From the sequence record AP019559: a DNA stretch of 64,000 nucleotides. One strand, given 5' to 3'. Every line of letters begins with the position of its first letter. Positions within the stretch are counted from its first letter, which is position 1. The notes beneath the pieces are model-generated. The model had not been told where the DNA came from and did no database searches. It was given only the letters and a program-made list of their open reading frames with translations. This document shows positions 18,525 through 38,354 of the stretch, one piece after another. The DNA comes from Escherichia phage SP15. Made by a program: the position numbers and the translations under genes.

Positions 18525-18815
18525 TTAATCCTCTGGATTATCATCCAGGAAATTTTTAATAGCTTCGTGCATAGTTTCTTTACGAAGCTGACGTCCAATC
18601 AAAATATGATTAGCTTCTATTCGACCATTAGGTAAGCGATCTGCCAGAACTACTACAGGTACTTGACGTACACCAAATTTCTGCATTAATTCTGTATTAT
18701 CAGTCTCTTTATGGATTTCCAAATTATAGTCATTGACTACTTTATCAAATACTGGTTCGAAAAGTTTACATGGGTTACAGGTGGAACCTTTTAATAGATA
18801 GACTAATTTAGACAT
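18525..18815 (-). CDS. thioredoxin-fold redoxin (CxxC)
   Basis: Track ORF 18525..18842 trimmed to the ATG at 18815 (AAGGAAA RBS); 'CNPC' active-site-like motif. Confidence 0.5.
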   Translation of the reverse strand: MSKLVYLLKGSTCNPCKLFEPVFDKVVNDYNLEIHKETDNTELMQKFGVRQVPVVVLADRLPNGRIEANHILIGRQLRKETMHEAIKNFLDDNPED

Positions 18816-19314
18816 TTTTATTTCCTTTGCTGGCAAACTCACCGTGGAGTTCTTCTAGTTTTTCATCTCTCCATGCAATTGCTTCTTCCAAAGAACTGCA
18901 CGTTTTCATATAATTGATTCCTGCTCTAGAGATTTTTACTCTAAAAGACTTCCCTCTTTGAGATATATTTTTTAATCCCAATAGGTTATTTTTATTAGCC
19001 GATTTCCTATTAAAAGCATTTTGAGCTTTTGTAGCTTCTCTTAAGTTACCAATACGATTGTTTAGCGTATTGGTATCATCATGATCTACTATATCAGGTA
19101 AATAGCCTTTGTGCATAAAGAAGATTGCTCTATGCGCAAGTATTCGTTCTCCATCAATAGAGAGCATTAGATAGCCATCAGCATTAATAGACCCAGCAGG
19201 CATATTGTTAAGGCTAGTATTCCAACCTCTTGTACCTTCCGGTCTAGGTTTCCAGGTTAGAGTACCATCTTCGTGGTACTCTAATACCTCTAATAATCTC
19301 TCCCTAGTAATCAC
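18808..19314 (-). CDS. HNH homing endonuclease
   Basis: 'VDHDDTNTLNNRIGNLREATKAQN' HNH core; C-terminal tail shared with the ORF at 23623. Confidence 0.7.
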   Translation of the reverse strand: MITRERLLEVLEYHEDGTLTWKPRPEGTRGWNTSLNNMPAGSINADGYLMLSIDGERILAHRAIFFMHKGYLPDIVDHDDTNTLNNRIGNLREATKAQNAFNRKSANKNNLLGLKNISQRGKSFRVKISRAGINYMKTCSSLEEAIAWRDEKLEELHGEFASKGNKNV

Positions 19315-19739
19315 AATTTATTAATGGCCTCTAAGAAGTTTTTCATAGTTTTTACGGTTGCGGTGCTCAGATCAAGATTTACACCCAAACACTCGGTTAA
19401 TGCTTCCTGATAAGGAGCCTTTAATCTGCCTTCTGGGACTTCTACCTTCTTATACTCTTTATTTTTGACCTTTTTAATCATAGTCTCTAGTACAAGAAGC
19501 GGTAATTTAGCACCTTCAATATCAGTACCCAAAAGTTCAGTTAAAATTTTATTAAGATCAAGACGAGTTAACTTTTTGCCCTTAGACATAGATGCACCTA
19601 CCTTTGTATCAATAGATTTTTCCGCTTTCTTTTCGAGCTTTTTGTACTCAGGAGAGTCATGATCACGGAGTGCAATGTTTAGCTCGTAATGTGGTATACG
19701 AAAATGTTCCGCCATTTGAGTGTAGAAACGATCAGACAT
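19311..19739 (-). CDS. hypothetical protein
   Basis: 142-aa ORF. Confidence 0.5.
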   Translation of the reverse strand: MSDRFYTQMAEHFRIPHYELNIALRDHDSPEYKKLEKKAEKSIDTKVGASMSKGKKLTRLDLNKILTELLGTDIEGAKLPLLVLETMIKKVKNKEYKKVEVPEGRLKAPYQEALTECLGVNLDLSTATVKTMKNFLEAINKL

Positions 19740-19814: not shown

Positions 19815-20231
19815 TTAATCTACTGCATGTATAAATCTTTTCCTAACTAGATACATAGTTATTGGGTAAATTGAGTACATAAGTATCGGGGAGAAAAGGG
19901 TGAAATACGCTGTAACTCCCCCAGCTAACATCAAAGGTATTAATGCTAGAGTAAGGGCCATAAGAATCATACCGAATGAAACAGCCAGAGCTATGGATAT
20001 AGGATTCTCTAGTTCCATCCATAACCAACAATATTTCGTATCTCTATGGCAATTGCATTTACAAACGCCGAATGAACCCATAATTATATACTCTAGTCCG
20101 TGAATAACCTTTATTAATAAGCTATTTCGGGTAGTTAATGCAATGATAGTAAAGACTATCATTAAAACGAATACTACTAGACTTATTTTCCAGATACCTA
20201 GCAGCATCATAGTGAATAGTTCTGCAAACAT
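19815..20231 (-). CDS. multi-pass membrane protein
   Basis: 138 aa with several hydrophobic segments. Confidence 0.45.
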   Translation of the reverse strand: MFAELFTMMLLGIWKISLVVFVLMIVFTIIALTTRNSLLIKVIHGLEYIIMGSFGVCKCNCHRDTKYCWLWMELENPISIALAVSFGMILMALTLALIPLMLAGGVTAYFTLFSPILMYSIYPITMYLVRKRFIHAVD

Positions 20232-20308: not shown

Positions 20309-20722
20309 TTAAACTAGTTCGACATGACCGCCATCATAGGTACCACGTTTTATTTCATCGTGATAGTCTCCCGAAGCATTCCAATCAGCACCAAAACGAA
20401 GTTTAATGCCTAGCTCTTTACCAGCTTGTTCAAAAGCCTTTTTAACTGCCCAAAATGCTTCTAAGTCATTCCAATCAATTTTGCCATTAATATATGGAGC
20501 AAAATCAATAGCATCCCCAGTAATATGTTTGCTTTTACTAGGATCTTTTAGAAATGAAGTACCATTAGCAATGTTCTGGGCACTTTGTGCTACTGTACGA
20601 ATACCTTGCACGATTGTGAAATCATACGGAGATAGTTCTAAAGCCCTACGAGCTACTTTTTGTAGCTCGGGCTTAACGGTAGCTAATTGTTTTTCACTAT
20701 TTTTACCAAATTTAAAACTCAT
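20309..20722 (-). CDS. lys: endolysin, L-alanyl-D-glutamate peptidase (M15-type, EndoT5-like)
   Basis: 137-aa protein; length and sequence match what I recall of the T5 endolysin. Confidence 0.85.
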   Translation of the reverse strand: MSFKFGKNSEKQLATVKPELQKVARRALELSPYDFTIVQGIRTVAQSAQNIANGTSFLKDPSKSKHITGDAIDFAPYINGKIDWNDLEAFWAVKKAFEQAGKELGIKLRFGADWNASGDYHDEIKRGTYDGGHVELV

Positions 20723-21375: not shown

Positions 21376-21531
21376 TTGTAACCTCCTCTAACCAGTACCA
21401 TTATACTAATTTTGGAGGAAAATTACAATGTGTTTTTAAAGATCACTTCTGGAGCATAAAATTTTGTCGTTGTCAAGAAGAATTTTAGATAAAAGAAAAG
21501 CCAGGGTCGTTAAACCCTGGCTTAAAATTAC

Positions 21532-22131
21532 TTACTCTTCGTTATGCTCCTCGGATTGAGGTAACTGGGCTTTATTATATTGCTCAGATCGATATTTTGC
21601 CAAGATTTCAATACGCTTATGGATTTCTTTGCTATCTAGATAGATATTTTTGTTGTCTTTTACCATCTCGTCGATTTCGTCTATAGAGAAGAACGGATAG
21701 TAGACATCTAGCATCATATCTTCTACGAACTTGTTGTAAGATTCATAGGCTTTCTTGATTTCTTGACCCTTCTCACAGAATCCGCCAGAGAACGTGTGTC
21801 CCATTAGCGTAGCATGTGGATGTACTACCCATCCATGACAGGATAGGAAAATTGTGCAGTAAGCAGAAGCACTAGGACCAATCAGGTGTCCTATAACTGT
21901 TCCACGGCAATTAGCAATTAAGTTAGATAACTGTGCAGCAGTATCAACATAACCACCAGGGCCATTAATCATCAGATTAATTTCGTCGTCCTCATTTGCT
22001 TGCATAAGTACCATTGATAAATCACGGTATTCATCCGGCGGGCCTAATTCTTCATCAAAGAAAAAGGTATACTCATTAGACTGGCGAATGGAGTGAAACA
22101 GGTTAGTCTTTTCTTCTTTTTTATTAGTCAT
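21532..22131 (-). CDS. ClpP-like serine peptidase family protein
   Basis: 'INGPGGYV' and 'GPSASAY' resemble ClpP motifs. Confidence 0.5.
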   Translation of the reverse strand: MTNKKEEKTNLFHSIRQSNEYTFFFDEELGPPDEYRDLSMVLMQANEDDEINLMINGPGGYVDTAAQLSNLIANCRGTVIGHLIGPSASAYCTIFLSCHGWVVHPHATLMGHTFSGGFCEKGQEIKKAYESYNKFVEDMMLDVYYPFFSIDEIDEMVKDNKNIYLDSKEIHKRIEILAKYRSEQYNKAQLPQSEEHNEE

Positions 22132-22143
22132 AGCGATCCTTGA

Positions 22144-22896
22144 TTATCCAACTAGTGGTTCTAGCTCTAAGTCACAGAAGTTATAAACTTCTAGTTTAAG
22201 GTTATTGATACCATCGAATTTATTAACTAATTCGTGAGTAATATATTTTGCAGGAATACCACTTTCAGATGGATGATCTGATTTAATAGTGAACTTCTGC
22301 TCAGCGGGTACTACATTTACTATCAAAGAATCCATATCTAAATGGTTTGTTTCTCTGAGTAACTCTCCTTCATTGGGGAATCTAACATCTGTTATTACGG
22401 CGACATCTGGGTCGTCTTTAGCGATGGATTGCTCCAGAATTATGAGCCAAATGCGTTCATGTACCAGCTGCCTTCCTAGCTCTGTTCCTACGAGCTGTAA
22501 CATTTTTCTCGGAGAAATAAATAAACTATAAAGTCCGTCTTCTTTATTCTCTGAGATAAGTTGTTGAGGATTAAGATATTTTTCCTCAAAAATCGGCCAA
22601 ACGTACGAGAAGTCTTCAAACTTATTGATACCGTATTTAAACCATACGTCTCTAGCTCGCTCCAATTGAGATTGTGTGACCGTAAACCATTGGTCAATCT
22701 CTTTCCCCCTGCGCTCTCCTAGAAACTCTGGAGTTACACCGAGGATTACGGATGCAAGTTCATAAACGGGCTTAGCAAAACTATAACGACGGGGTAAACA
22801 CGTTGGATACGTGTCATTACACCAATCGATAATTAATTTTGCAACGGTATCTTTTCCCGAACCAGCTTCACCATGTAAACCGACTAATACTGACAT
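22144..22896 (-). CDS. dnk: deoxynucleoside monophosphate kinase
   Basis: P-loop 'GEAGSGKDT' near the N-terminus; 250 aa. Confidence 0.7.
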   Translation of the reverse strand: MSVLVGLHGEAGSGKDTVAKLIIDWCNDTYPTCLPRRYSFAKPVYELASVILGVTPEFLGERRGKEIDQWFTVTQSQLERARDVWFKYGINKFEDFSYVWPIFEEKYLNPQQLISENKEDGLYSLFISPRKMLQLVGTELGRQLVHERIWLIILEQSIAKDDPDVAVITDVRFPNEGELLRETNHLDMDSLIVNVVPAEQKFTIKSDHPSESGIPAKYITHELVNKFDGINNLKLEVYNFCDLELEPLVG

Positions 22897-23249
22897 TAAT
22901 CTTTCCTATTGTTAATTGGTGGATAATATACTAAACAACGTTTTTCTTGCAAATCTTGGCGGTAGAAGCAAACCATACTAGTCAGTCGTGAGATATATGA
23001 ATATTCTGCCTCACGGCATTTTGCCAACATATTCCAATCTTTGTATGGTACAACAACTACTACGCCATCTTCCCCATTTGTAGCTAATTTCTTTTCAAAC
23101 TTAAAGTCAAAGCTACAAGGCTGAAGTCCTTTAGGCCAATCCACATGGGCTTGCTTTAACTCATGTGACGGCTCTGGTACTACCGTTTCTGCACAGCCTG
23201 TGATTGTGATTGCGGCTGCGAGCAGTATTCCAAGTTTCCAGTTAAACAT
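22896..23249 (-). CDS. outer-membrane lipoprotein, o-spanin candidate
   Basis: Signal peptide with lipobox 'ITGC'; start lies inside the upstream gene. Confidence 0.5.
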   Translation of the reverse strand: MFNWKLGILLAAAITITGCAETVVPEPSHELKQAHVDWPKGLQPCSFDFKFEKKLATNGEDGVVVVVPYKDWNMLAKCREAEYSYISRLTSMVCFYRQDLQEKRCLVYYPPINNRKD

Positions 23250-23623
23250 GCTAATCTTTCCTCGAACTCCTTACTCTGCTTTTTAGCAATTAATGTAACC
23301 AATCCAGGCTTTGCAGCTATAATATCTTGGCGACTAAGAGCTTTGTCTAACTGCTTAATCTTTTTGTCTAGATCTGCTTGCGAAATATTATTCATTGTGA
23401 AATACTGATTCATTCTAGTCTCACGAAGTTCGCTTTCAGCTTTCACCTTATTGAGGGAAGTCTCTAGAGAAGAAATCTTTTTAGTAGCCACCGCAAGATC
23501 TCCTGCTAAAGTCTCCACTTTATCTACTAAGTGATAAGCACCGAACCCGATGCCTATCGCTAGACCTGCTCCCAGGATATACATCTTGTTATTCCAAACT
23601 AAGTCTACAAACCATTTCCGCAT
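23180..23623 (-). CDS. i-spanin candidate (type II membrane protein with coiled coil)
   Basis: N-terminal transmembrane helix then long coiled-coil; 3' end overlaps the lipoprotein ORF. Confidence 0.5.
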   Translation of the reverse strand: MRKWFVDLVWNNKMYILGAGLAIGIGFGAYHLVDKVETLAGDLAVATKKISSLETSLNKVKAESELRETRMNQYFTMNNISQADLDKKIKQLDKALSRQDIIAAKPGLVTLIAKKQSKEFEERLACLTGNLEYCSQPQSQSQAVQKR

Positions 23624-24120
23624 TAGCCTGTACTCGCAAACTCACCGTGGAGTTCTTTGAGTTTGGTATCCCGCCATTTTATAGCCTCTTCCAAACTCTT
23701 AAGTGTTTTCGAAACTTGCTTACCATGTTTGGTAATTCTTACTTGGTAAGTCCCATTTGTTTTTCTATGGATATTTTTAACGCCTAAATGGTTATCGCTT
23801 CTTACTTTTTGGTTACAAGCATTATCAGATCTTGTAGCAGGCCTTAGATTCTCAAATCTATCATTAGTTGAGTCTTTGTCCTTGTGATCAACTATTTCAG
23901 GCCATTCTCCAGTATGCCATGCATAGATTAATCTATGTGCCCCTATAGCTATGGAACCATTATATAGTTCAACTACTCTATGCCCTGTACTTTGTCTAGA
24001 TCCTGCTACTGTTCCGGCGAATATCTTATTAAAATGTTCGTCCCCTTCCCTGGGTTTCCAGATAAGATTACCATCTTCTTGGTAATCGAACATTCTTCTT
24101 AGCTCTTCCTTACTGATCAT
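23623..24120 (-). CDS. HNH homing endonuclease
   Basis: 'VDHKDKDSTNDRFENLRPATRSDN'; paralog of the ORF at 18808. Confidence 0.7.
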   Translation of the reverse strand: MISKEELRRMFDYQEDGNLIWKPREGDEHFNKIFAGTVAGSRQSTGHRVVELYNGSIAIGAHRLIYAWHTGEWPEIVDHKDKDSTNDRFENLRPATRSDNACNQKVRSDNHLGVKNIHRKTNGTYQVRITKHGKQVSKTLKSLEEAIKWRDTKLKELHGEFASTG

Positions 24121-24815
24121 CTTTTCATATTCCTAAAAGAAGTAACAGTATCAAATCCATGTGCAGCTAAGCGATCCTTATCGGAAATCGTAATAGTATT
24201 TGGTTCGCCGGTTCCTAACACGCCCCAGATATATTGCTCGATCATCTGGTGCAAACGGTATAAGTTACTTTCAATTTCCTGCCACGGAATACCTGACTGA
24301 TGGAAACGAATGTTAGTCTGAATCACGAAGTTACGAACATCATCGTTATCGTTCTTCTTGATACCTTTCACATATGCAATCGGTACACGCAGTTCGGACA
24401 AGATACGTTCTGCTTTAGGTTTTGCTTCAACGAGCAAATCACGCATTGTTTCACGAACATCTCCGCGACTCTTATCCATTAAGTAAGAGCGAGCATGCAA
24501 TCCCATCTCTTCCATTTTATCGAACATAGTGTCGAGGTTGAACGTTTTGAAGCTAAATGCTGGATGCCAGCAGTACAGCTCGTGTAACCAGTAAACTTCA
24601 CCTGCAACAAATAGTGGGTTTACAAAATATTCGAAATCACCACGGAAAGATAGCGAACCATCACGAAATACCTGACGACTATGCACGATGTTCTTTTCTG
24701 CATCATCAGTTACTTTAACCAGTAGCTCTTCAGTTTTACGCTCCCAAACACGATCTGCATCAAATAAACTGTTCTGCAAATCATATACATCGGCGAATTT
24801 AGAAATGATCCTCAT
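24117..24815 (-). CDS. hypothetical protein
   Basis: 232-aa ORF downstream of an early promoter. Confidence 0.55.
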   Translation of the reverse strand: MRIISKFADVYDLQNSLFDADRVWERKTEELLVKVTDDAEKNIVHSRQVFRDGSLSFRGDFEYFVNPLFVAGEVYWLHELYCWHPAFSFKTFNLDTMFDKMEEMGLHARSYLMDKSRGDVRETMRDLLVEAKPKAERILSELRVPIAYVKGIKKNDNDDVRNFVIQTNIRFHQSGIPWQEIESNLYRLHQMIEQYIWGVLGTGEPNTITISDKDRLAAHGFDTVTSFRNMKR

Positions 24816-24874: not shown

Positions 24875-24968
24875 CTAAAATTTTATTATAAAAATAGCCC
24901 AGTCGCAAAAGTGCAGGCTGGGCTTTGTCATTATTTGCTTTTGCTAGTAAGCTGACTTAGTGTCAATC

Positions 24969-28524: not shown

Positions 28525-28600
28525 TGGTAGTTAGTAGTGGATTTGAACCACTGTAGTCGCTCCGTATGAAGGAGGTGCATAACCACTCTGCCAACTAACT
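28525..28600 (-). tRNA. tRNA, anticodon CAT (Met, or Ile if lysidine-modified)
   Basis: Hand fold: 7-bp acceptor, T-arm GGTTCAAATCC, anticodon loop TTCATAC, encoded CCA. Confidence 0.6.
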
Positions 28601-28696
28601 GTTATGTTTTACTAGACTAAGTAAGTATTCTTTATACTCTTTAGACCAATTAGCTTTTTTAAACTTTCCTGGACGCATAGTCTTAATTCCTAGATT

Positions 28697-28773
28697 TGGT
28701 ACTCCGGGAGGGATTTAAACCCCCGATCTCTCGGTTATCAGCCGAGTGCTTTAGATCGCTAAGCTACCGAAGT
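28697..28773 (-). tRNA. tRNA-Ile (GAT)
   Basis: Hand fold: perfect anticodon stem CTCGG/CCGAG, loop CTGATAA. Confidence 0.75.
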
Positions 28774-28788
28774 ATTAGAATATTTACA

Positions 28789-29079
28789 TCATACACTGTC
28801 TAAGTAAGAAGTATAATGGAATTTAGCTTCTCCAGTCTTATCTACTTCTACCTCAGTTCGTGGTACTTGACGAACCACACCATGAATCATCTTATAGCGA
28901 ATGCCTTTAGCTGGTTCATGATCTTTTGGGAATACTTGTTTAACCGTTACTACTTTATATCCTTCACGCGGTGTTAACACTACTACTTGATCACCTTCTT
29001 TGATTTTCCAAGAAGATGGAAATTCATAGGTATATCTTTGACCACCAGTTTGGAATACTACAGAAAGATAACGTTTCAT
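28789..29079 (-). CDS. hypothetical protein
   Basis: 96-aa ORF between tRNA genes with its own promoter. Confidence 0.55.
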   Translation of the reverse strand: MKRYLSVVFQTGGQRYTYEFPSSWKIKEGDQVVVLTPREGYKVVTVKQVFPKDHEPAKGIRYKMIHGVVRQVPRTEVEVDKTGEAKFHYTSYLDSV

Positions 29080-29109
29080 TTGGTTTCCCTCTCATTAATT
29101 TATATAGAT

Positions 29110-29138
29110 ATTATAACAAGAAATAAGAGAGAAGGCAA
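29110..29138 (-). promoter_or_regulatory. T5-type early promoter
   Basis: Minus strand TTGCCT, 17 nt, TATAAT. Confidence 0.55.
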
Positions 29139-29153
29139 ATGAATTTTTAAATT

Positions 29154-29228
29154 TGGTGCTCCCACCAGGAATCGAACCCGGTTCAGATGCTTACAAGGCA
29201 ACTGCATCGCCAGCAATGCTTTAGGAGC
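29154..29228 (-). tRNA. tRNA-Thr (TGT)
   Basis: Hand fold: loop CTTGTAA, acceptor GCTCCTA/TGGGAGC. Confidence 0.7.
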
Positions 29229-29395
29229 GATGATCCCGTTATTTCAACGGGATTTCTTTTTCAATAACAGGAGACTTATCAGTCATAACTGTCATTGCCA
29301 TTTGTTGTAGAAATTCAAAGGTGAAGGCTACACGTTCTTCACCAATCTCTACTTCTACACGTTTCTTTTGTTTATCAATCTTTACTTTTAGGTTG

Positions 29396-29617
29396 TCAGC
29401 CATCTTCGGGTTCTCGTTGCTGTACTACTTCTAGCCAGTCTGGTAGAAGAAACTTTGTACGAAATTCTTCGTAAGTTTCTTTGGGATAAAAGCTAAAACC
29501 TCCTTTCTCATCATTCAGGATAACAGAACCGTCAGTTTGTTCATATGCTCGATATGTTTCTCCAATAATGATAACTCGCTTATCAGTACTTTTATTATGA
29601 AACTCAAAAACGTGCAT
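29396..29617 (-). CDS. hypothetical protein
   Basis: 73 aa. Confidence 0.5.
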   Translation of the reverse strand: MHVFEFHNKSTDKRVIIIGETYRAYEQTDGSVILNDEKGGFSFYPKETYEEFRTKFLLPDWLEVVQQREPEDG

Positions 29618-29633
29618 AATGTTTCCTTAAAGT

Positions 29634-29709
29634 TGGAGCGGCTAGAGGGAATCGAACCCTACTCAGCGAGGCTTGGAAGGCCTGCGACACAACCCGTGTG
29701 CTTAACCGC
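29634..29709 (-). tRNA. tRNA-Gly (TCC)
   Basis: Hand fold: loop CTTCCAA; short D-arm. Confidence 0.65.
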
Positions 29710-29717
29710 TTATTATT

Positions 29718-29793
29718 TGGCTGGAGAAGGAGGAATCGAACCTACCATTAACGGAGTCAAAGGCCGTTGTGCTAACCGTTACACTACTCTCCA
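29718..29793 (-). tRNA. tRNA-Gln (TTG)
   Basis: Hand fold: loop CTTTGAC, U1-A72. Confidence 0.65.
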
Positions 29794-29799
29794 AGTATT

Positions 29800-29875
29800 T
29801 GGCTGGGATGCCACGGATTGAACGTGGAACCTTCGGAGTCAGAGGCCGACGATCTGCCAATTGATCTACATCCCA
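29800..29875 (-). tRNA. tRNA-Gln (CTG)
   Basis: Hand fold: perfect acceptor and T-stems, loop CTCTGAC. Confidence 0.7.
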
Positions 29876-29888
29876 ATAATTCTTTACT

Positions 29889-30083
29889 TTATGTAAATAG
29901 GGTAACTGGCTCAGGTTCTTCAAGGCGCTTACCTTCATGATCTACTCGAATGACTCCGCATCCTTCGCAAACCACAACTGCACCATAACCTTCTTTGACT
30001 TCGGCTTCTGTAATCAGACCAGATAAGTCACCAGTATCTCTGCCCCACATATTAATGGAGCATTGTTTGCAGAAATCAGCCAT
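29889..30083 (-). CDS. small zinc-ribbon protein
   Basis: 64 aa with CxxC...CxxC. Confidence 0.5.
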   Translation of the reverse strand: MADFCKQCSINMWGRDTGDLSGLITEAEVKEGYGAVVVCEGCGVIRVDHEGKRLEEPEPVTLFT

Positions 30084-30108
30084 ATTTTATTTCCTATTTA
30101 AGTTAATT

Positions 30109-30185
30109 TGGGGTGGCTAGTGGAATTCGAATCCACATAGGCCTGATTCACAATCAGGATCATTAACCAATTATGATATAGCCAC
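30109..30185 (-). tRNA. tRNA-His (GTG)
   Basis: Hand fold: loop TTGTGAA, discriminator C, all stems perfect. Confidence 0.8.
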
Positions 30186-30414
30186 AATTGAAAACTCGCA
30201 GGGTTAGCGAAACCTTCCTCAATTAGCATGTTCTAGAATACTAATCAAGTTATCTCCTATTGCACGCAGCTCAAGACGAGTACGAATTTTCAATTGTGGC
30301 AGCTCTCAGAAACTCTTCTATTCTAGCCCCAGAAGCTTACCCCCGAACGCATGTCGGGAAAGTCTTTCCAAGCGCATCAAATAGCACCGTTACACTTTGA
30401 GCCATTGATGTATC

Positions 30415-30499
30415 AAGGAACAGAAGGATTTGAACCTTCACGAGATAGACCATTTATCTCAACCGCTTTTAAGGTATATTTCTAGGAGTGGATGTTCCT
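30415..30499 (-). other. degenerate tRNA-like element
   Basis: Perfect 7-bp acceptor AGGAACA/TGTTCCT, T-arm GAAGG-TTCAAAT-CCTTC, variable-arm-like hairpin; no canonical D or anticodon arm; no CCA. Confidence 0.4.
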
Positions 30500-30552
30500 A
30501 GTAAACCTATTCGGCAGTCCCGTCTACCAATTCCGGCATATTCCAAGAATTT

Positions 30553-30726
30553 TTATAAACCAGCAGAAGCCTCATTTAAAGCATCAACAATAGCTTCACG
30601 TTGGGTCATTCCATACCCAGTGGAATCTAGGTGTGGCAAATAAGCCATCCATCCCTTATCTGTTTCATGAAGGCATGCTTTAAATTTTTTACCGTCCTTC
30701 ATTGTTACAGTAACTGTTTTGCTCAT
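30553..30726 (-). CDS. hypothetical small protein (57 aa, below ORF-track cutoff)
   Basis: ATG with AAGGAA RBS, fills the gap between tRNA genes. Confidence 0.4.
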   Translation of the reverse strand: MSKTVTVTMKDGKKFKACLHETDKGWMAYLPHLDSTGYGMTQREAIVDALNEASAGL

Positions 30727-30746
30727 AATGATTCCTTATAGTTAAT

Positions 30747-30836
30747 TGGAGGAAGGTAATGGAGTCGAACCATCACCGTATCACTACAGCGGGCTAGTTT
30801 TCAAGACTAGTTGCGTACCACTACGCCCTACCTTCC
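30747..30836 (-). tRNA. tRNA-Ser (TGA), class II
   Basis: Hand fold: loop CTTGAAA, long variable arm. Confidence 0.8.
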
Positions 30837-30843
30837 ATTTGTT

Positions 30844-30934
30844 TGGCGGAAGAGGAGAGATTTGAACTCTCAAGCCGTTTTACCAGTCAGCCACTTTCCA
30901 AGCGGTTTTCGTCGCCAATTCGATTTGCTCTTCC
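30844..30934 (-). tRNA. class II tRNA, anticodon unresolved (possibly Ser GGA)
   Basis: Acceptor GGAAGAG/CTCTTCC and T-arm resemble tRNA-Ser; D/anticodon region does not fold canonically by hand. Confidence 0.4.
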
Positions 30935-31046
30935 AAAAATAAGATGATGCCTCTATCACACCAGGCAGTTACGCCCCGCTGGGATTCGAACCCATTAAAA
31001 CAGCTCAACCGAGATAGTAGGTTTAATTTACTCTGACCATCAAATT

Positions 31047-31123
31047 TGGTGCGTGACAAGGGATTCGAACCCTCAAAACCCGACTTCTAAGGACGGTATG
31101 TATGCCAATTCCATCAATCACGC
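31047..31123 (-). tRNA. tRNA with anticodon TAG (Leu by anticodon) but class I architecture
   Basis: Hand fold: loop CTTAGAA, 5-nt variable loop, discriminator A. Confidence 0.55.
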
Positions 31124-31128
31124 GTATT

Positions 31129-31207
31129 TGGTGGAGGATAACGAATTCGAATCGTTCTGATGTCCTCGGTGCAAGCGAGGTGTCCACTCCCAGCAGACCC
31201 ATCCCCC
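31129..31207 (-). tRNA. tRNA-Ala (TGC)
   Basis: Hand fold: G3-U70 wobble in acceptor, loop CTTGCAC. Confidence 0.7.
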
Positions 31208-31492
31208 AAAATCTTTAGTTTACTAAGGCTATTAGCTCGGCGTAACTACAGCACCTTCGCTTCGAGCGGAAGGAACTACGTCATCTCGCAAACCCGATAC
31301 ACTATTCAGTTGCCGCTGAATCTAGTGGACTAATCTAGAACCTCTCCCGAGTCATAGGGATCGTGCTTTTTGGCAGCCAGTCCTAGGTCGAGCTAATACC
31401 TTAGTGAACTATGATGAGGATTTCTCCTCATCAATTTATATAAACATTATATCAAGAAATTAAGCATTAAGCAACTGAATTTCTTATTTAAT

Positions 31493-31566
31493 TGGTACTC
31501 AGTAGTGGAATCGAACCACTGCAACCACCGTGTAAAGATGGAGTTCTACCATTAAACTAACCGAGC
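31493..31566 (-). tRNA. tRNA-Val (TAC)
   Basis: Hand fold: loop TTTACAC. Confidence 0.7.
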
Positions 31567-31719
31567 AAAAGACGTTCTATAATATAGGCTTCAGTTATAA
31601 GCTCATAAAACCCTGCGAATATCATTGCAATAGTAAAATTATCTATGATTACTATTGGCTCTTTAATTTTTTGAATGATTAAATAAAACCAGATAGTCAT
31701 ATCTGACTTCCTCGTAATT

Positions 31720-31798
31720 TGGTAGATCGCCTGGGACTCGAACCCAGAACCTTCCGATTAAAAGTCGGATGCTACTAAACCTATTGAGCTAGCGACCT
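31720..31798 (-). tRNA. tRNA-Lys (TTT)
   Basis: Hand fold: perfect anticodon stem, loop CTTTTAA. Confidence 0.7.
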
Positions 31799-31987
31799 AT
31801 TAGTAGCCATTATATACTTCTTTAATAGAATGGACTTTTAAGTAAGGATGATTAATCCCAAACTCCGCCATTACTTCTTTTTCATCTTTTCCATAATGTG
31901 CAAGTAAGGATCTTGAGGTATTATTACCTAAACGTTTGTCATTTACTACTAATCGAAATACTTTCATTTCGAAATCCTCTATTAAAA

Positions 31988-32064
31988 TGGAAGCGGGTGC
32001 AGGAATCGAACCTACCTCTTTCTAGCTTATGAGACTAGCGATCTCTACCAGAGATCTAACCCGC
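31988..32064 (-). tRNA. tRNA, anticodon CAT (Met/fMet/Ile2 not resolved)
   Basis: Hand fold: loop CTCATAA; acceptor pairing ambiguous at the 1-72 position. Confidence 0.6.
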
Positions 32065-32071
32065 AATTGTT

Positions 32072-32147
32072 TGGTCAGTGCGGCAGGACTCGAACCTGCG
32101 ACCCGAAGCATCCAAGGCTCCCACGCTACCAACTGCGCTACGCACTG
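32072..32147 (-). tRNA. tRNA-Pro (TGG)
   Basis: Hand fold: perfect acceptor CAGTGCG/CGCACTG, loop CTTGGAT. Confidence 0.8.
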
Positions 32148-32156
32148 TTAATTCTT

Positions 32157-32354
32157 TTATTGTGGGGGGATATTAATAATTCGTCCATCTACACAATAAA
32201 CGGTACTAGGGATTGTACTGTATATGTAGAAATTCTTTATATTACTCTCTCCGCCACAGAAATTTTTAGCAAATTCATACTCTTTATTAATGGTTGAGTC
32301 AAGTTTAAAACAACCAGTAAGTAGGAATACAGATAGCAATAAAACTTTCTTCAT
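32157..32354 (-). CDS. small lipoprotein
   Basis: 65 aa, signal peptide with lipobox 'LLTGC'; early-type promoter upstream. Confidence 0.5.
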   Translation of the reverse strand: MKKVLLLSVFLLTGCFKLDSTINKEYEFAKNFCGGESNIKNFYIYSTIPSTVYCVDGRIINIPPQ

Positions 32355-32564
32355 TTTGCTTTCCTTCTCTTCACTTTATAAAATATATTATACAGAGAAT
32401 TAAGTAAAATAGCAAATGAATTTTTAATAAATTTACTTATTGTGTAGGCCACCTGGAGGCTATGAACCCCACGGCTGACAAAGAAGTTTGCGAGACTTCT
32501 CTTAAAAGCCAGAATAGACCCGCCGATCTATCGGAACCTACATAATAAGTAAACTTTATAGTGT

Positions 32565-32640
32565 CATTCTAGACAGGACTCGAACCTGTTATCACTTGTG
32601 CGGACTTACGAGAACCATTCTTTCACTCGAATCGAACGAG
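32565..32640 (-). other. degenerate tRNA-like element with two T-arm-like hairpins
   Basis: ACAGG-TTCGAGT-CCTGT and CTCG-TTCGATT-CGAG hairpins; no canonical anticodon arm. Confidence 0.35.
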
Positions 32641-32807
32641 CTTCTGCCCTAGCCAAGCTGGTTTCCCCATCAACCACGCTAGAATGTTTGATTGTTTTCA
32701 GTGCAAGAGTCCGAGTCTTGGACACGACCGCTTCGCAAGTACATAGGCAGCTTATCATGAGTCAGCACTTCCGAATTGCTAGCCCCGTGTTCTGCACTGA
32801 AATTTTA

Positions 32808-33155
32808 TTAGTTTAACCGTAAAGTATTATCTACTTCACCATTAATTGTTCGGCATTCCTCTGGGATTGCTGGTGTAGCCTTGTATTCCCACCACTCAGC
32901 ACCATCATATTCCCCACGTTCTAGCCAAGTTCCATCGGCAAACCATACATTACCATAAAGTAATTGTCCACCGTATCCAGAATCATATTCAAAGTCTAGG
33001 TTATTAAGAAACCCCTCAATGTCTTCTTCTGTATAACCTAAAGGTAATACCCAGACTTTTTTGTCCCCATAATACCCAAATTCTATTTTAATACACTTAA
33101 CTTTAGAATTGGTATTTTTTAAGGCGAGTAACAGCTCTTCTTTAGCATTACGCAT
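32808..33155 (-). CDS. hypothetical protein
   Basis: 115 aa, Trp/Tyr/Gly-rich. Confidence 0.5.
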   Translation of the reverse strand: MRNAKEELLLALKNTNSKVKCIKIEFGYYGDKKVWVLPLGYTEEDIEGFLNNLDFEYDSGYGGQLLYGNVWFADGTWLERGEYDGAEWWEYKATPAIPEECRTINGEVDNTLRLN

Positions 33156-33180
33156 AGTATATTCTCATACTGAATTAAGT

Positions 33181-33257
33181 TGGCGCGACCGATGGGATTT
33201 GAACCCACATTCTCTCCCGTGACAGGGGAGTACCATTACCAAGCCAGCCCCGGTCGC
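33181..33257 (-). tRNA. tRNA-Asp (GTC)
   Basis: Hand fold: perfect acceptor GCGACCG/CGGTCGC, loop CTGTCAC. Confidence 0.8.
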
Positions 33258-33266
33258 ATAATTCAT

Positions 33267-33452
33267 TTACTCAGCTTTGAGTTTTTCAATAGCTGCATTA
33301 AGTTCTTTAAGAAACTCTTTTCGTACATTAAGACGATTGAGACTTACTAGTATATCGTGTTTAAGTTCTTCGATGTATTTCTTTTCAACTTCAATATTGT
33401 TGATAGTGCTATCACGATGAACTTCTAGCTGCGCAATTACATTCTTGGACAT
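33267..33452 (-). CDS. small coiled-coil protein
   Basis: 61 aa. Confidence 0.5.
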   Translation of the reverse strand: MSKNVIAQLEVHRDSTINNIEVEKKYIEELKHDILVSLNRLNVRKEFLKELNAAIEKLKAE

Positions 33453-33554
33453 GCTTGTTTCCTCAGTTATTAATGAAAATGGTATCTGTGGCTGAATTCG
33501 ATGTCAGCAATGATAGCTGGTTGGCTACCGGTTTACTTAACTCTACACAGAATT

Positions 33555-33637
33555 TGGCGGGCCGTGTAGGATTCGAACCTACGTTGTCTTTCGACATGGA
33601 TTAACAGTCCACCGCCAAACCGCTTGGCTAACGACCC
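33555..33637 (-). tRNA. class II (long variable arm) tRNA with anticodon GTT (Asn by anticodon), discriminator G
   Basis: Hand fold is clean: D-stem GCCA/TGGC, anticodon stem GTGGA/TCCAT, loop CTGTTAA, variable hairpin GTC-GAAA-GAC, T-arm GTAGG-TTCGAAT-CCTAC. Confidence 0.6.
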
Positions 33638-33789
33638 TAAATTTATATTGCTGACTAGGATTTTCACCTAGACGGAGTTAGCACCGTAGCGTGTAGCGGC
33701 ATACCTCTCCAAACCGTGCCTCATCTTTCAATTACGGAGACAGTGTTCCTACGCGTGCCTGAATTGATTCAACAATTCTTCCAGCAAAT

Positions 33790-33865
33790 TGGACGACCGC
33801 ATGAGATTTGAACTCACATAAAAAGGATTTGCAATCCTTCGCCTAAGCCCTTCAGCCAACGGTCG
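33790..33865 (-). tRNA. tRNA-Cys (GCA)
   Basis: Hand fold: perfect anticodon stem AAGGA/TCCTT, loop TTGCAAA. Confidence 0.75.
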
Positions 33866-33934
33866 GTTTATCTTGTTCTGTCATGTTGCTTCTCCAGTTC
33901 AATTTATGTAATTATTATACAGAACTTTTGGAAA

Positions 33935-34207
33935 CTAAGCAACTACATTTTTTAAGAATTTGATGCCTTTCTTTTTCTTCTTATATTTCCACGTTAATGG
34001 ATTCTGTCGATTATGAACGCTTGAGATCTTTGTCTCGTCAAAGTTCTTCAATATCATGTAATCACAGGATAATTGTTCTAGTAGAATGTGATCACCGTCA
34101 AAAGCGTATACATAAGGCTGTTGACTAACACGATAATGATAGACTTTGTTAATTCTACGTTTCAGCGACTTATCAGCGCAGTAAATAAAGAAGTTTTCAG
34201 GATGCAT
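33935..34207 (-). CDS. hypothetical basic protein
   Basis: Track ORF 33935..34222 (TTG start) trimmed to the ATG at 34207 with AAGGAG RBS. Confidence 0.5.
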   Translation of the reverse strand: MHPENFFIYCADKSLKRRINKVYHYRVSQQPYVYAFDGDHILLEQLSCDYMILKNFDETKISSVHNRQNPLTWKYKKKKKGIKFLKNVVA

Positions 34208-34224
34208 CAGCAGCTCCTTCAATT

Positions 34225-34299
34225 TGGTGCACCCTGTTCGTATCGAACGAACCTCTCAAGCTCTTCAGGCAAGCGCTAATCCATCTCAGCTAAAGGTGC
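34225..34299 (-). tRNA. tRNA-Phe (GAA)
   Basis: Hand fold: U8-A9, D-stem GCTG/TAGC, loop CTGAAGA; two U-U mismatches in anticodon stem. Confidence 0.55.
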
Positions 34300-34305
34300 A
34301 AATTT

Positions 34306-34382
34306 TGGCAAACCTACTAGGACTCGAACCTAGACCGTACGGTTTTGGAGACCGACATGCTGTCCAGTAACACTCTAGGAAT
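34306..34382 (-). tRNA. tRNA-Trp (CCA)
   Basis: Hand fold: loop CTCCAAA, perfect T-stem; acceptor has two U-U mismatches. Confidence 0.55.
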
Positions 34383-34390
34383 GCAGAAAT

Positions 34391-34467
34391 TGGCGTCCTG
34401 TGCGGGGATCGAACCCGCAAATCCTACCTTGAAAGGGTAGTGACTTTACCAGTTTGTCTAACAGGAC
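34391..34467 (-). tRNA. tRNA-Glu (TTC)
   Basis: Hand fold: all four stems perfect, loop CTTTCAA. Confidence 0.85.
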
Positions 34468-34474
34468 TTAAATT

Positions 34475-34565
34475 TGGTGTTGGATGATGGAGTCGAACCA
34501 CCCGAGACCCTTCCGAGTCGGCAGATTTACAGTCTGCTTCGCTACCTCTACGATACTAATCCAAC
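34475..34565 (-). tRNA. tRNA-Tyr (GTA), class II
   Basis: Hand fold: perfect acceptor GTTGGAT/ATCCAAC, anticodon arm GCAGA-CTGTAAA-TCTGC, long variable arm. Confidence 0.75.
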
Positions 34566-34630
34566 ATATTTAGAAGTATTCAAAAATTCTCATTTAAACA
34601 CTTTTAAATATGTTTTCAAATTAGGTAACT

Positions 34631-34687
34631 ATTATACCAAGTTTTAAGGCACTGAGCAAGTCAAATTTTAAAGAACTTGCTCAGTGC
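34631..34687 (-). promoter_or_regulatory. early promoter for the tRNA cluster overlapping a 13-bp perfect inverted repeat
   Basis: Minus strand TTGCTC, 17 nt, TATAAT (34631-34659); inverted repeat GCACTGAGCAAGT 34649-34661 / 34675-34687. Confidence 0.55.
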
Positions 34688-34695
34688 TATATTAG

Positions 34696-34971
34696 TTAGT
34701 CGAACTTAGGAGTGACAGTTAAGGAGAACGGAAGTTCGAAAACTTCTTCACCCTCATTACTAACGGTAACTACACGACCTTTAAGTTCAGACATTAAAAT
34801 ATCAATATCAGCTTTTGCATCTGGAGCCATACCAGCTTCAACACATTTAGCTTTAACTTCCGGCAGAAGTTCGACATCGTAGAAATAAAGCCATTCAATC
34901 TCACCTTCCCAGCCTTCCCAGGATTTACAGATTGCACTTTCAATACCAGTTGCTACAACACGATTTTGCAT
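34696..34971 (-). CDS. hypothetical acidic protein
   Basis: 91 aa. Confidence 0.5.
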   Translation of the reverse strand: MQNRVVATGIESAICKSWEGWEGEIEWLYFYDVELLPEVKAKCVEAGMAPDAKADIDILMSELKGRVVTVSNEGEEVFELPFSLTVTPKFD

Positions 34972-35061
34972 TCGTTAACTCCTTCATCAATTTATACAAC
35001 TATTATATCAGAAATTTAAAGCAAAAGGCAAGTACATTTTTAAAAATTCTGTTTGGAGGAG

Positions 35062-35268
35062 CTAAACTCCAGATTCTTCAGCTAAGTCTAGGCTAATAAG
35101 AGTTATAGCCATAATTGCTGCACCGTGTTCTTTTTCTCCGGTGTTTTTAGCAGAGTCTATAATAGTCTTAATCTGTTCGTAATAGCCTTTTACTTCTTGT
35201 TCAATACCTGCCTCGGCTATCATGCCTTTAGTCATGATTCGTTGCATAGTAATTTCACGGTTAGCCAT
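35062..35268 (-). CDS. hypothetical protein
   Basis: 68 aa. Confidence 0.5.
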   Translation of the reverse strand: MANREITMQRIMTKGMIAEAGIEQEVKGYYEQIKTIIDSAKNTGEKEHGAAIMAITLISLDLAEESGV

Positions 35269-35428
35269 GATGTTTCTCCAGCTTCATTTTTAATAGTTTA
35301 CAAATGAAATCAACGTCTTCATCTGTACCTAGATCTCTATCTTCAAGAGTTGCCTTGAAGTTTTTAGTCAATTCCATGAGGATAACTTCTCTAGAACGAC
35401 GTGTTGGCGGAGGTGGATGTCTATACAT
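35261..35428 (-). CDS. hypothetical small protein (55 aa, below ORF-track cutoff)
   Basis: ATG with AAGGAAATAAG RBS; 8-nt overlap with the downstream gene. Confidence 0.35.
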   Translation of the reverse strand: MYRHPPPPTRRSREVILMELTKNFKATLEDRDLGTDEDVDFICKLLKMKLEKHHG

Positions 35429-35443
35429 CTTATTTCCTTAGTT

Positions 35444-35520
35444 TGGTAGGGGTGGTGGGATTCGAACCCACAAAACCTGAATTTTAAGTCCAGTACCTAT
35501 GCCAATTCGATTACACCCCC
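35444..35520 (-). tRNA. tRNA with anticodon TAA (Leu by anticodon) but class I architecture
   Basis: Hand fold: good acceptor and T-stem, loop CTTAAAA, 5-nt variable loop, discriminator A. Confidence 0.55.
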
Positions 35521-35527
35521 GTGTAGT

Positions 35528-35716
35528 TTAGTCAATTACTTTTGAGGCTTCAAGGTAGTCGATATAGTGTATGTTTTCTACCGTAATCATATAATCTGTC
35601 ACTTTATCCATAGCTTGGGCTTCAGAGGTAGCTCTGGCTAACCTATATCCTTTTTTATATTCATCCGGGTATTCTCTATCTTGGATAAACACAACATAAA
35701 CTATATATAGATCCAT
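35528..35716 (-). CDS. hypothetical protein
   Basis: 62 aa. Confidence 0.5.
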   Translation of the reverse strand: MDLYIVYVVFIQDREYPDEYKKGYRLARATSEAQAMDKVTDYMITVENIHYIDYLEASKVID

Positions 35717-35735
35717 TTGTGACCTCTATTTAATT

Positions 35736-35813
35736 TGGTGGCTCCCCGAGGATTCGAACCTACGTACCTTCCGGTTATGAGCCGGGTGCTCATACCATAT
35801 GAGCTTGAGAACC
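35736..35813 (-). tRNA. tRNA, anticodon CAT (third copy)
   Basis: Hand fold: perfect D-stem GCTC/GAGC, loop CTCATAA; weak T-stem. Confidence 0.5.
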
Positions 35814-35819
35814 AGAATT

Positions 35820-35908
35820 TGGCGGAAGAAGCGGGAATCGAACCCACAAGGCTATATTTCAAACCGACAGATTAGCAATCTGCTGCAATACCGTTATGCT
35901 ATTCTTCC
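35820..35908 (-). tRNA. tRNA-Ser (GCT), class II
   Basis: Hand fold: perfect acceptor GGAAGAA/TTCTTCC, loop TTGCTAA, long variable arm. Confidence 0.75.
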
Positions 35909-35929
35909 GAATTTATAAGATATATTATA

Positions 35930-36448: not shown

Positions 36449-36623
36449 ATTTGGTTCCTCTTTCAAATTTATAGATATATTATACAGAGAATTTAGCATT
36501 CAAGCAATCAAATTTTTTAACTTTTTAGAGGAAAATCATAGGGCACTTAAGGATAGCAGATAAGTGGTGAGGACCAAAATTTGTGACCCCACTAAAAATT
36601 CAGGGGCAATTTTTAAAGACCCC

Positions 36624-36652
36624 TTGACATTTTCGCTGGGGTAGTGTAAAGT
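36624..36652 (+). promoter_or_regulatory. sigma70-type promoter for the plus-strand three-gene module
   Basis: Consensus TTGACA, 17-nt spacer, TAAAGT. Confidence 0.55.
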
Positions 36653-36713
36653 ATATGTTATGGATGAGTGATCAAAGAGACACACATTTTCTATATACTA
36701 GGAGGTGTCAAAA

Positions 36714-37697: not shown

Positions 37698-37718
37698 TAT
37701 TAAGGGGAGGAGCCCATT

Positions 37719-38135: not shown

Positions 38136-38144
38136 GGAGAAATT

Positions 38145-38339: not shown

Positions 38340-38354
38340 AGAACCAAACAATAA

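What the first reader, a model, noticed from the sequence alone, without database searches (positions are those of the whole stretch)
22896..23623. Overlapped spanin-like gene pair separated from holin and endolysin
A type II membrane protein with a coiled-coil (23180-23623) overlaps out of frame with a lipoprotein gene (22896-23249), the classic i-spanin/o-spanin arrangement, but it lies about 1.8 kb from the holin-endolysin pair with dNMP kinase and a ClpP-like gene in between.
Basis: inference. Interest (0 to 1): 0.4.

Follow-up and report, generated by a model that had tools for sequence, protein, structure and literature searches.

The report
Known T5-type overlapped spanin gene pair
These two overlapping genes are the well-catalogued inner- and outer-membrane spanin pair of a T5-like phage, which breaks the host outer membrane at the end of lysis; its position away from the holin and endolysin is the normal, conserved layout of this phage family, so the finding is correct but ordinary.

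Summary
On the minus strand, a 147-aa ORF (23180-23623) and a 117-aa ORF (22896-23249) overlap by 70 nt in different frames.

The window is a T5-like phage, 96-98% nucleotide identity to T5 and vB_Sen_I1. The two proteins are 95% and 94% identical to T5.045 and T5.044, which RefSeq calls 'Rz-like spanin'. They match PHROG 739 and 812 (E 4e-37, 1e-29), the same two families that hold T4 PseT.3 and PseT.2. That T4 pair has been shown to complement lambda Rz/Rz1.

- **Class features:** an N-terminal membrane helix followed by a heptad helix, an ITGC lipobox with Ala at +2, and conserved periplasmic cysteines including the two that are essential in PseT.2.
- **Prior description:** Kongari et al. 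2018 list a 'T5 family' of overlapped spanins and state that the T5 spanins overlap by 70 bp.
- **Gene order:** i-spanin, o-spanin, dNMP kinase, Clp-like protease, terminator/promoter, T-type holin, endolysin. This order holds in five Demerecviridae lineages, and T4 also scatters its lysis genes.

No direct genetic test of the T5 pair was found.

The parts
23180..23623 (-). i-spanin gene (147 aa). N-in/C-out bitopic inner-membrane protein with a TMD at about residues 15-33, a heptad helix at about 33-70, a second helix at about 82-97, and a C-terminal C126-x7-C134 motif.
   Evidence: ORF. PHROG 739 'Rz-like spanin', E 3.9e-37. 95% identical to T5.045. 28% identical to T4 PseT.3, pairwise E 5e-6, and T4 PseT.3 falls in the same PHROG 739. 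Hydropathy and heptads. AlphaFold helices. C126, G129, N130 and C134 are invariant in six Demerecviridae sequences.
22896..23249 (-). o-spanin gene (117 aa). Outer-membrane lipoprotein precursor with lipobox ITGC, lipidated Cys19, Ala at +2, and periplasmic Cys45, Cys78, Cys94 and Cys105.
   Evidence: ORF. PHROG 812 'Rz-like spanin', E 9.7e-30. 94% identical to T5.044. 29% identical to T4 PseT.2, E 7e-7, and T4 PseT.2 falls in the same PHROG 812. G18, C19, W38, P39, C94 and C105 are invariant, T4 included.
23180..23249 (-). 70-nt dual-coding overlap. It encodes the last 23 codons of the i-spanin (including C126 and C134) in one frame and the o-spanin signal peptide, lipobox and Cys19 in another. 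A GAGG Shine-Dalgarno-like motif lies 10 nt upstream of the o-spanin ATG, inside the i-spanin gene.
   Evidence: Coordinates and frames. Same 70-nt overlap in T5 and as published (PMC6139136).
20719..21375 (-). Holin, homologous to T4 gpt (class III, single TMD). Partner lysis gene, about 1.5 kb downstream of the spanin pair.
   Evidence: Pfam PF11031 Phage_holin_T, E 2.2e-112. PHROG 860 holin. T5 C1/holin annotation.
20309..20722 (-). Endolysin (T5 Lys type, L-alanyl-D-glutamate peptidase, M15 family). It overlaps the holin stop by 4 nt.
   Evidence: PHROG 465 endolysin, E 1.1e-54. Pfam Peptidase_M15_4 at cutoff. T5 lys annotation.
21532..22896 (-). Two intervening non-lysis genes: dNMP kinase (22144-22896, start overlapping the o-spanin stop as TAATG) and a Clp-like protease (21532-22131).
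   Evidence: PHROG 139 and 1827, Pfam PF21448 and PF00574. Junction sequence.
21400..21523 (-). Terminator-like hairpin (21523-21498) after the Clp-like gene, then a promoter-like site (21428-21400) in front of the holin. The spanin genes and the holin-endolysin genes therefore look like separate transcription units.
   Evidence: Consensus scan. A terminator and promoter are annotated at the equivalent T5 positions. These are consensus matches only, not shown to function.
24880..24908 (-). Promoter-like site upstream of the tightly packed string orf232, HNH, i-spanin, o-spanin, dnk, clp.
   Evidence: Consensus scan. T5 annotates a promoter at the equivalent place. Inferred only.

Best explanation
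This is the two-component spanin of a T5-like (Tequintavirus) phage, orthologous to T5.045/T5.044 and distantly homologous to T4 PseT.3/PseT.2.

Proposed mechanism, inferred from the lambda and T4 systems. The 147-aa i-spanin inserts in the inner membrane with its N-terminus in the cytoplasm and extends a helical, partly coiled-coil domain into the periplasm. The 117-aa o-spanin is secreted, lipidated on Cys19 and sorted by Lol to the inner leaflet of the outer membrane, because its +2 residue is Ala rather than Asp. The periplasmic ends of the two proteins bind, forming a complex that spans the periplasm and is stabilised by disulfides. Candidate disulfide residues are the conserved C94/C105 pair of the o-spanin and the family-specific C126/C134 of the i-spanin.

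The complex is held inactive by the intact peptidoglycan meshwork. When the T-type holin releases the M15 endolysin and the wall is degraded, the spanins are freed to bring the inner and outer membranes together and fuse or disrupt them, which completes lysis.

Because activity is gated by wall degradation, the spanin genes need not be co-transcribed with the holin and endolysin. Here they sit in a separate upstream unit with dnk and a Clp-like protease.
For: Shown by tools:
- The ORFs and the 70-nt out-of-frame overlap.
- PHROG 739 and 812 spanin families, E 4e-37 and 1e-29, the same families as T4 PseT.3 and PseT.2.
- 95% and 94% identity to T5.045 and T5.044, both annotated 'Rz-like spanin' in RefSeq.
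- TMD with positive-inside N-terminus, and lipobox ITGC with +2 Ala.
- Heptad helix and AlphaFold helices.
- The lipobox Gly-Cys and the C94/C105 pair are invariant from T5-likes to T4.
- The overlapped pair and its flanking gene order are conserved in five Demerecviridae lineages.
- A T-type holin and an endolysin lie 1.5 kb downstream.

From the literature (PMC6139136):
- A T5 spanin family of overlapped architecture is listed, with a 70-bp overlap.
- T4 pseT.3/pseT.2 complement a lambda Rz-am Rz1-am lysis defect.
- Both PseT.2 cysteines are essential.
Against: - No direct experiment on the T5 or T5-like pair was found in the searchable literature. Function rests on homology to T4 (28-29% identity) and on class features.
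- There are no Pfam or NCBIfam models for either protein.
- The single-sequence model of the o-spanin is low confidence (pLDDT 44).
- Signal-peptidase II processing, Lol sorting, complex formation, the disulfide pattern and the timing of expression are all inferred, not shown.
Confidence: 0.93

Rival explanations
1. The pair is homologous to spanins but has, or also has, an early-infection envelope role. Examples would be superinfection exclusion or envelope remodelling. The reason to consider this is that the pair sits in a tightly packed unit with nucleotide-metabolism genes rather than with the holin and endolysin.
For: The pair is separated from the holin unit by a terminator-like and a promoter-like site (T5 annotation). 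The stop/start junctions with the HNH gene and with dnk are both TAATG. This placement is conserved across the family, and T4 likewise has its pair among genes such as alc and pseT.
Against: All spanin class features are present and conserved. The T4 homologues function as spanins (PMC6139136). In the lambda model (own knowledge), spanins made ahead of time stay inactive until the peptidoglycan is degraded, so early synthesis needs no extra function. No data point to another role.
Confidence: 0.04
2. The 117-aa lipoprotein is a lytic-conversion or receptor-blocking lipoprotein of the T5 Llp or phi80 Cor kind. The 147-aa protein would then be an unrelated bitopic membrane protein, for instance FtsL-like.
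For: T5-like phages do encode a small receptor-blocking lipoprotein, Llp (PMC4342426). There is a weak NCBIfam hit of the 147-aa protein to an FtsL domain (E 1.3e-4, 21.6 bits).
Against: The FtsL hit is far below its 50-bit cutoff and covers only the TMD and the start of the helix. Both proteins match spanin PHROGs with E below 1e-29. The o-spanin shares the essential Cys pair with T4 PseT.2. The out-of-frame overlap with a bitopic partner is the spanin signature. From own knowledge, T5 llp lies next to the receptor-binding gene elsewhere in the genome.
Confidence: 0.02
3. The overlapping 117-aa ORF is a chance alternative-frame ORF and not a gene.
For: None beyond the general fact that ORF lists contain spurious overlapping frames (one search lists many on the opposite strand).
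Against: The ORF is conserved at the protein level in 551 phage records. It persists in genera whose proteins are only 36-48% identical, with invariant lipobox and cysteines. Only 70 of its 354 nt overlap the i-spanin gene.
Confidence: 0.005

Closest known systems
Phage T5 spanins T5.045 (i-spanin) and T5.044 (o-spanin); the 'T5 family' of overlapped two-component spanins in Kongari et al. 2018 (PMC6139136)
   Same: 95% and 94% amino-acid identity, identical lengths (147 and 117 aa), an identical 70-nt overlap, and the same neighbours (hegF HNH endonuclease upstream, dnk downstream).
   Different: Only a handful of substitutions, clustered just after the lipobox in the o-spanin and at the extreme C-terminus of the i-spanin. 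Nothing structural differs.
Phage T4 PseT.3 / PseT.2 spanins
   Same: Same PHROG families, 739 and 812. 28-29% identity over most of the length. Shared AKPGLV motif in the i-spanin, and shared lipobox plus the C-x10-C cysteine pair (C94/C105 here) in the o-spanin. Both are located away from a homologous T-type holin (PMC6139136).
   Different: The T4 genes are filed in the literature as 'separated' architecture (PMC6139136), although the RefSeq annotation shows a 4-nt stop/start overlap. The genes here overlap by 70 nt. T4 PseT.3 is shorter (117 aa) and has no cysteines. The T5-type i-spanin has a C-terminal extension with an invariant C-x7-C, and the o-spanin has an extra Cys45/Cys78 pair. 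The endolysin partner also differs: an M15 peptidase here, against (from own knowledge) the gene e lysozyme in T4.
Lambda Rz / Rz1
   Same: Same functional class and topology: a type II inner-membrane protein with periplasmic helices plus an outer-membrane lipoprotein encoded in another frame of the same DNA. The i-spanin also carries periplasmic cysteines, as Rz does.
   Different: No detectable sequence similarity (only PHROG 739 and 812 were hit). Rz1 is fully embedded in Rz, is proline-rich and unstructured, and lies in a contiguous S-R-Rz/Rz1 cassette. [quoted passage not shown]
Shivani / phiR201 / vB_Sen_I1-type 'separated' T5-family spanins
   Same: Homologous proteins in the same genomic context (PMC6139136).
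   Different: In those phages a roughly 700-bp ORF sits between the two spanin genes. Kongari et al. [quoted passage not shown] The window lacks this insertion and keeps the overlapped form.

Membership tests
Two-component spanin (i-spanin + o-spanin), functional class | The i-spanin has a single N-terminal TMD with N-in/C-out (type II) topology. | tested here: met
   R2, K3 and K13 precede the hydrophobic stretch 15-33, which is the only hydrophobic segment. Its peak Kyte-Doolittle 19-residue average is 1.55, slightly under the usual 1.6, because the segment is rich in Gly and Ala. No dedicated topology predictor was available.
Two-component spanin (i-spanin + o-spanin), functional class | The i-spanin periplasmic domain is largely alpha-helical with coiled-coil propensity. 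| tested here: met
   A continuous heptad register runs over about residues 33-70 by a crude heptad scan. AlphaFold single-sequence helices at 27-77 (pLDDT 84-90 for residues 41-70), 82-97 and 106-127.
Two-component spanin (i-spanin + o-spanin), functional class | The o-spanin has a lipoprotein signal with a lipobox and an invariant Cys, and no inner-membrane retention signal (no Asp at +2). | tested here: met
   Lipobox ITGC with Cys19, +2 Ala and +3 Glu. Gly-Cys is invariant in seven sequences including T4. Actual lipidation was not testable.
Two-component spanin (i-spanin + o-spanin), functional class | The o-spanin gene is embedded in, overlapping, or immediately downstream of the i-spanin gene. 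| tested here: met
   70-nt overlap in a different frame. Overlaps of 34-88 nt in four other genera.
Two-component spanin (i-spanin + o-spanin), functional class | Periplasmic cysteines are available for intermolecular disulfides. | tested here: met
   i-spanin C126 and C134; o-spanin C45, C78, C94 and C105. Their conservation is shown. Disulfide formation itself was not testable.
Two-component spanin (i-spanin + o-spanin), functional class | The pair is required for outer-membrane disruption: a lysis defect in the presence of divalent cations, or complementation of lambda Rz-am Rz1-am. | not testable with these tools
   No experiment on the T5 pair was found. Complementation is shown only for the T4 homologues (PMC6139136).
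T5 spanin family (Kongari et al. 2018) / T5.045-T5.044 orthologues | High sequence identity to both T5 proteins, in the same genomic position. | tested here: met
   95% and 94% identity over the full length. Same flanking genes as in NC_005859.
T4 PseT.3/PseT.2-type spanins (PHROG 739 / PHROG 812) | Profile-level homology of both partners to the T4 pair. | tested here: met
   Window proteins: PHROG 739, E 3.9e-37, and PHROG 812, E 9.7e-30. T4 PseT.3 and PseT.2 hit the same PHROGs, E 1.3e-37 and 5e-42. Pairwise BLASTP E 5e-6 and 7e-7.
T4 PseT.3/PseT.2-type spanins (PHROG 739 / PHROG 812) | The two C-terminal o-spanin cysteines that are essential in PseT.2. | tested here: met
   C94 and C105 align with the PseT.2 cysteine pair and are invariant. 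Their essentiality in T4 is from PMC6139136.
Lambda Rz/Rz1 family | Sequence homology to Rz and Rz1, with Rz1 fully embedded in Rz. | tested here: not met
   No hit to any other spanin PHROG at E up to 0.01, and no Pfam hit. The architecture is overlapped, not embedded. The pair works like Rz/Rz1 but is not a member of that sequence family.

The most novel reading that the evidence does not exclude
The T5-type pair may use a disulfide scheme that is a hybrid of the two studied systems. It keeps the T4-type essential o-spanin cysteine pair (C94/C105). It adds an i-spanin C-x7-C motif (C126/C134) that is invariant across Demerecviridae, absent from T4 PseT.3, and encoded inside the dual-coding overlap. 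It also adds a co-varying o-spanin pair, C45/C78, which is lost together in Priunavirus and T4.

Together with family-wide placement in a unit with dnk and clp rather than with the holin, this could mean that spanin complexes are pre-assembled well before lysis, with a distinct covalent architecture. None of this is excluded by the data, and none of it has been tested.
Probability: 0.3. Interest if true: 0.25.

Novelty: already known. Interest (0 to 1): 0.07.

Why it matters
It matters little beyond correct annotation. The pair is the published T5-family spanin.

The practical value is that many GenBank records of T5-like phages still label one or both genes 'hypothetical protein', omit the o-spanin, or truncate it. 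The features listed here could be used to fix those records: the 70-nt overlap, the ITGC lipobox and the conserved cysteines.

For spanin biology, the T5 family is an untested relative of the T4 system with extra conserved cysteines. It is a modest target for disulfide-topology experiments.

Tried and rejected
1. Pfam and NCBIfam scans of both proteins gave no family. The only NCBIfam hit was a sub-threshold FtsL domain (21.6 bits against a 50-bit cutoff), judged to be generic 'TMD plus coiled coil' similarity.
2. A literature search for T5.044, T5.045 or 'T5 spanin' returned only Kongari et al. 2018, with no functional study.
3. A search for T5 transcriptome or timing data returned nothing relevant. 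The 'early unit' statement therefore stays an inference from promoter/terminator-like sites and the T5 annotation.
4. The single-sequence AlphaFold model of the o-spanin was too low in confidence (pLDDT 44) to use for fold searches. No fold search was run, and only its secondary-structure order is mentioned.
5. The Llp/Cor-type lipoprotein reading and the chance-ORF reading were considered and rejected (see the rival explanations).
6. The large protein-database searches were not run. The phage collection, PHROGs and the literature had already settled the identity, so the cost was not justified.

Full report
**What is in the sequence.** Two ATG-initiated ORFs lie on the minus strand at exactly the reported coordinates: 23180-23623 (147 aa) and 22896-23249 (117 aa). 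They share 70 nt (23180-23249), and the downstream start is offset by 2 nt from the upstream frame. A GAGG motif lies 10 nt upstream of the second ATG. The upstream ORF starts in a TAATG junction with an HNH endonuclease gene, and the downstream ORF ends in a TAATG junction with the dNMP kinase gene. The pair is therefore part of a tightly packed string of genes.

**Protein features.**
- The 147-aa product has R2, K3 and K13, then its only hydrophobic segment (residues 15-33, YILGAGLAIGIGFGAYHLV). An unbroken heptad pattern follows over about residues 33-70.
- A single-sequence AlphaFold model gives a long helix at 27-77, with pLDDT 84-90 over residues 41-70, and further helices at 82-97 and 106-127. 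This supports the description of a type II membrane protein with a coiled coil.
- The 117-aa product begins MFNWKLGILLAAAITITGC. This is a signal-like segment ending in the lipobox ITGC, with Cys19 and Ala at +2. By the established +2 rule, that predicts Lol-dependent sorting to the outer membrane (the rule is established knowledge).
- The single-sequence model of the 117-aa product is poor (pLDDT 44). I use only its beta-alpha-beta-beta order, which resembles the beta1-alpha-beta2 organisation reported for T4 PseT.2 (PMC6139136).

**Identity of the locus.** The 4.5 kb around the pair is 96-98% identical to Tequintavirus genomes, including T5 itself at 95.9%.
- In RefSeq T5 the equivalent genes are T5.045 and T5.044, both named 'Rz-like spanin'. 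They have the same lengths and the same 70-nt overlap, and the original notes point to T4 PseT.3/PseT.2 similarity.
- The window proteins are 95% and 94% identical to T5.045 and T5.044.
- They hit PHROG 739 (E 3.9e-37) and PHROG 812 (E 9.7e-30), both 'Rz-like spanin'.
- T4 PseT.3 and PseT.2, taken from NC_000866, hit the same two PHROGs (E 1.3e-37 and 5e-42).
- T4 PseT.3 and PseT.2 align pairwise to the window proteins at 28-29% identity (E 5e-6 and 7e-7).
- Pfam and NCBIfam have no model for either protein.

**Conservation.**
- tblastn finds the i-spanin in 538 phage records and the o-spanin in 551. Almost all are Demerecviridae.
- In four distant members both ORFs are present and still overlap, by 88, 34, 49 and 43 nt. 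These are Klebsiella Sugarlandvirus VAC51, Pectobacterium DU_PP_V, Providencia PSTCR5 and Enterobacter KKP_3711. Their lipoboxes are ASGC, LVGC, IVGC and LVGC.
- In the o-spanin alignment including T4, the invariant residues are G18, C19, W38, P39, C94, Y96, E102 and C105. C94 and C105 align with the two PseT.2 cysteines that Kongari et al. showed to be essential (PMC6139136).
- Within Demerecviridae the i-spanin keeps C126, G129, N130 and C134 invariant, and T4 PseT.3 lacks this tail.
- o-spanin C45 and C78 are present together, or absent together in PSTCR5 and T4. This suggests an intramolecular pair (inference).

**The separation from the holin and endolysin.**
- Downstream of the pair lie the dNMP kinase (PHROG 139, PF21448) and a Clp-like protease (PHROG 1827, PF00574).
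- Then come a terminator-like hairpin (21523-21498) and a promoter-like site (21428-21400).
- Then come a T4-gpt-type holin (PF11031, E 2e-112) and an M15 endolysin.
- T5's annotation places a terminator and a promoter at the same spots.
- The order i-spanin, o-spanin, dnk, clp, holin, endolysin is the same in all five Demerecviridae lineages examined.
[quoted passage not shown] The two families therefore share both holin and spanin types and a dispersed lysis-gene layout.
- In the lambda model, spanins are kept inactive by the intact peptidoglycan meshwork until the endolysin acts (my own knowledge of the lambda spanin literature). Separate or earlier transcription therefore poses no mechanistic problem.

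**Prior knowledge.** Kongari et al. 2018 list a T5 i-spanin family and a T5 o-spanin family of ten members each. They classify T5 as 'overlapped' and state that 'the T5 spanins overlap by 70 bp'. They contrast this with Shivani and phiR201, where a roughly 700-bp putative GIY-YIG homing endonuclease gene separates the two genes. [quoted passage not shown] The window's closest nucleotide relative, vB_Sen_I1, has this inserted 699-nt ORF, and the window does not.

I found no direct genetic test of the T5 pair. Function therefore rests on homology to the tested T4 pair and on class features.

**Rivals.** A receptor-blocking lipoprotein (Llp/Cor-like) combined with an FtsL-like protein is rejected. 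The FtsL hit is sub-threshold, and both proteins match spanin profiles strongly. A chance overlapping ORF is rejected by conservation. An additional early role cannot be excluded, but nothing supports it.

**Verdict.** The arrangement is the known, conserved T5-family layout, so the novelty rating is 'already known' and interest is low (0.07). The most novel reading left open concerns the family-specific extra cysteines and possible pre-assembly from a separate transcription unit (probability about 0.3, modest interest).

Noticed in passing
window 23623-24120 (-): An HNH homing endonuclease gene (165 aa, PHROG 99; T5 hegF / F-TflVI homologue) abuts the i-spanin start through a TAATG junction. 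In many relatives the tblastn match to the i-spanin only begins at residue 9. In phage Seafire, which lacks the HNH gene, the i-spanin start instead overlaps the orf232 homologue. The presence or absence of the endonuclease therefore appears to remodel the first 8 codons of the i-spanin.
   Followed up: partly
L010 (MT233524.1 vB_Sen_I1) 3437-4135, versus window 23180-23249: The closest nucleotide relative (97.8% identity) carries a 699-nt ORF inserted between the i- and o-spanin genes. This is the Shivani-type 'separated' form; Kongari et al. [quoted passage not shown] With the HNH gene upstream, the spanin locus looks like a hot spot for homing endonuclease insertion.
   Followed up: partly
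window 18808-19314 (-): A second HNH endonuclease ORF (168 aa, PHROG 99, E 2e-52) lies next to the T5.038 homologue (19311-19739). The T5 annotation shows no HNH gene at this position; T5.037, a thioredoxin, is there. It is probably another mobile insertion relative to T5.
   Followed up: partly
window 22710-22715 (inside dnk, 22144-22896): A GCGC motif (TGCGCT) sits at the position equivalent to the site that the T5 annotation marks as a 'major DNA single-chain interruption' (consensus Pu-pGCGC). It is the only such motif on that strand within dnk. The T5-type nick site therefore seems to be conserved.
   Followed up: partly
window 19815-20231 (-): A 138-aa multi-pass membrane protein (PHROG 5944, unknown function; T5.039, 'four transmembrane domains') lies immediately downstream of the endolysin with its own promoter-like site (19801-19773). 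An ORF of about 120-145 aa occupies the same position after the endolysin in the four other Demerecviridae loci. Homology between them and any link to lysis control were not checked.
   Followed up: no
window 24117-24815 (-): A 232-aa ORF heads the spanin-containing gene string (PHROG 4243, unknown function; no Pfam or NCBIfam hit). Several GenBank records call its homologue 'DNA polymerase III subunit epsilon', a name that nothing here supports.
   Followed up: partly
L005 (MZ571830.1) 3501-3830; L002 (PQ462666.1) about 3397-3750: Public annotation errors for the o-spanin. VAC51 annotates only a truncated 51-aa 'O-spanin' (3675-3830), although the full 109-aa ORF with its lipobox starts at 3501. 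HMD-P4 annotates the i-spanin but no o-spanin at all. Many T5-like records label both genes 'hypothetical protein'.
   Followed up: partly
window 28525-39516 (-): A cluster of 23 tRNA genes, all on the minus strand. A large tRNA cluster is, from my own knowledge, usual for T5-like phages.
   Followed up: no
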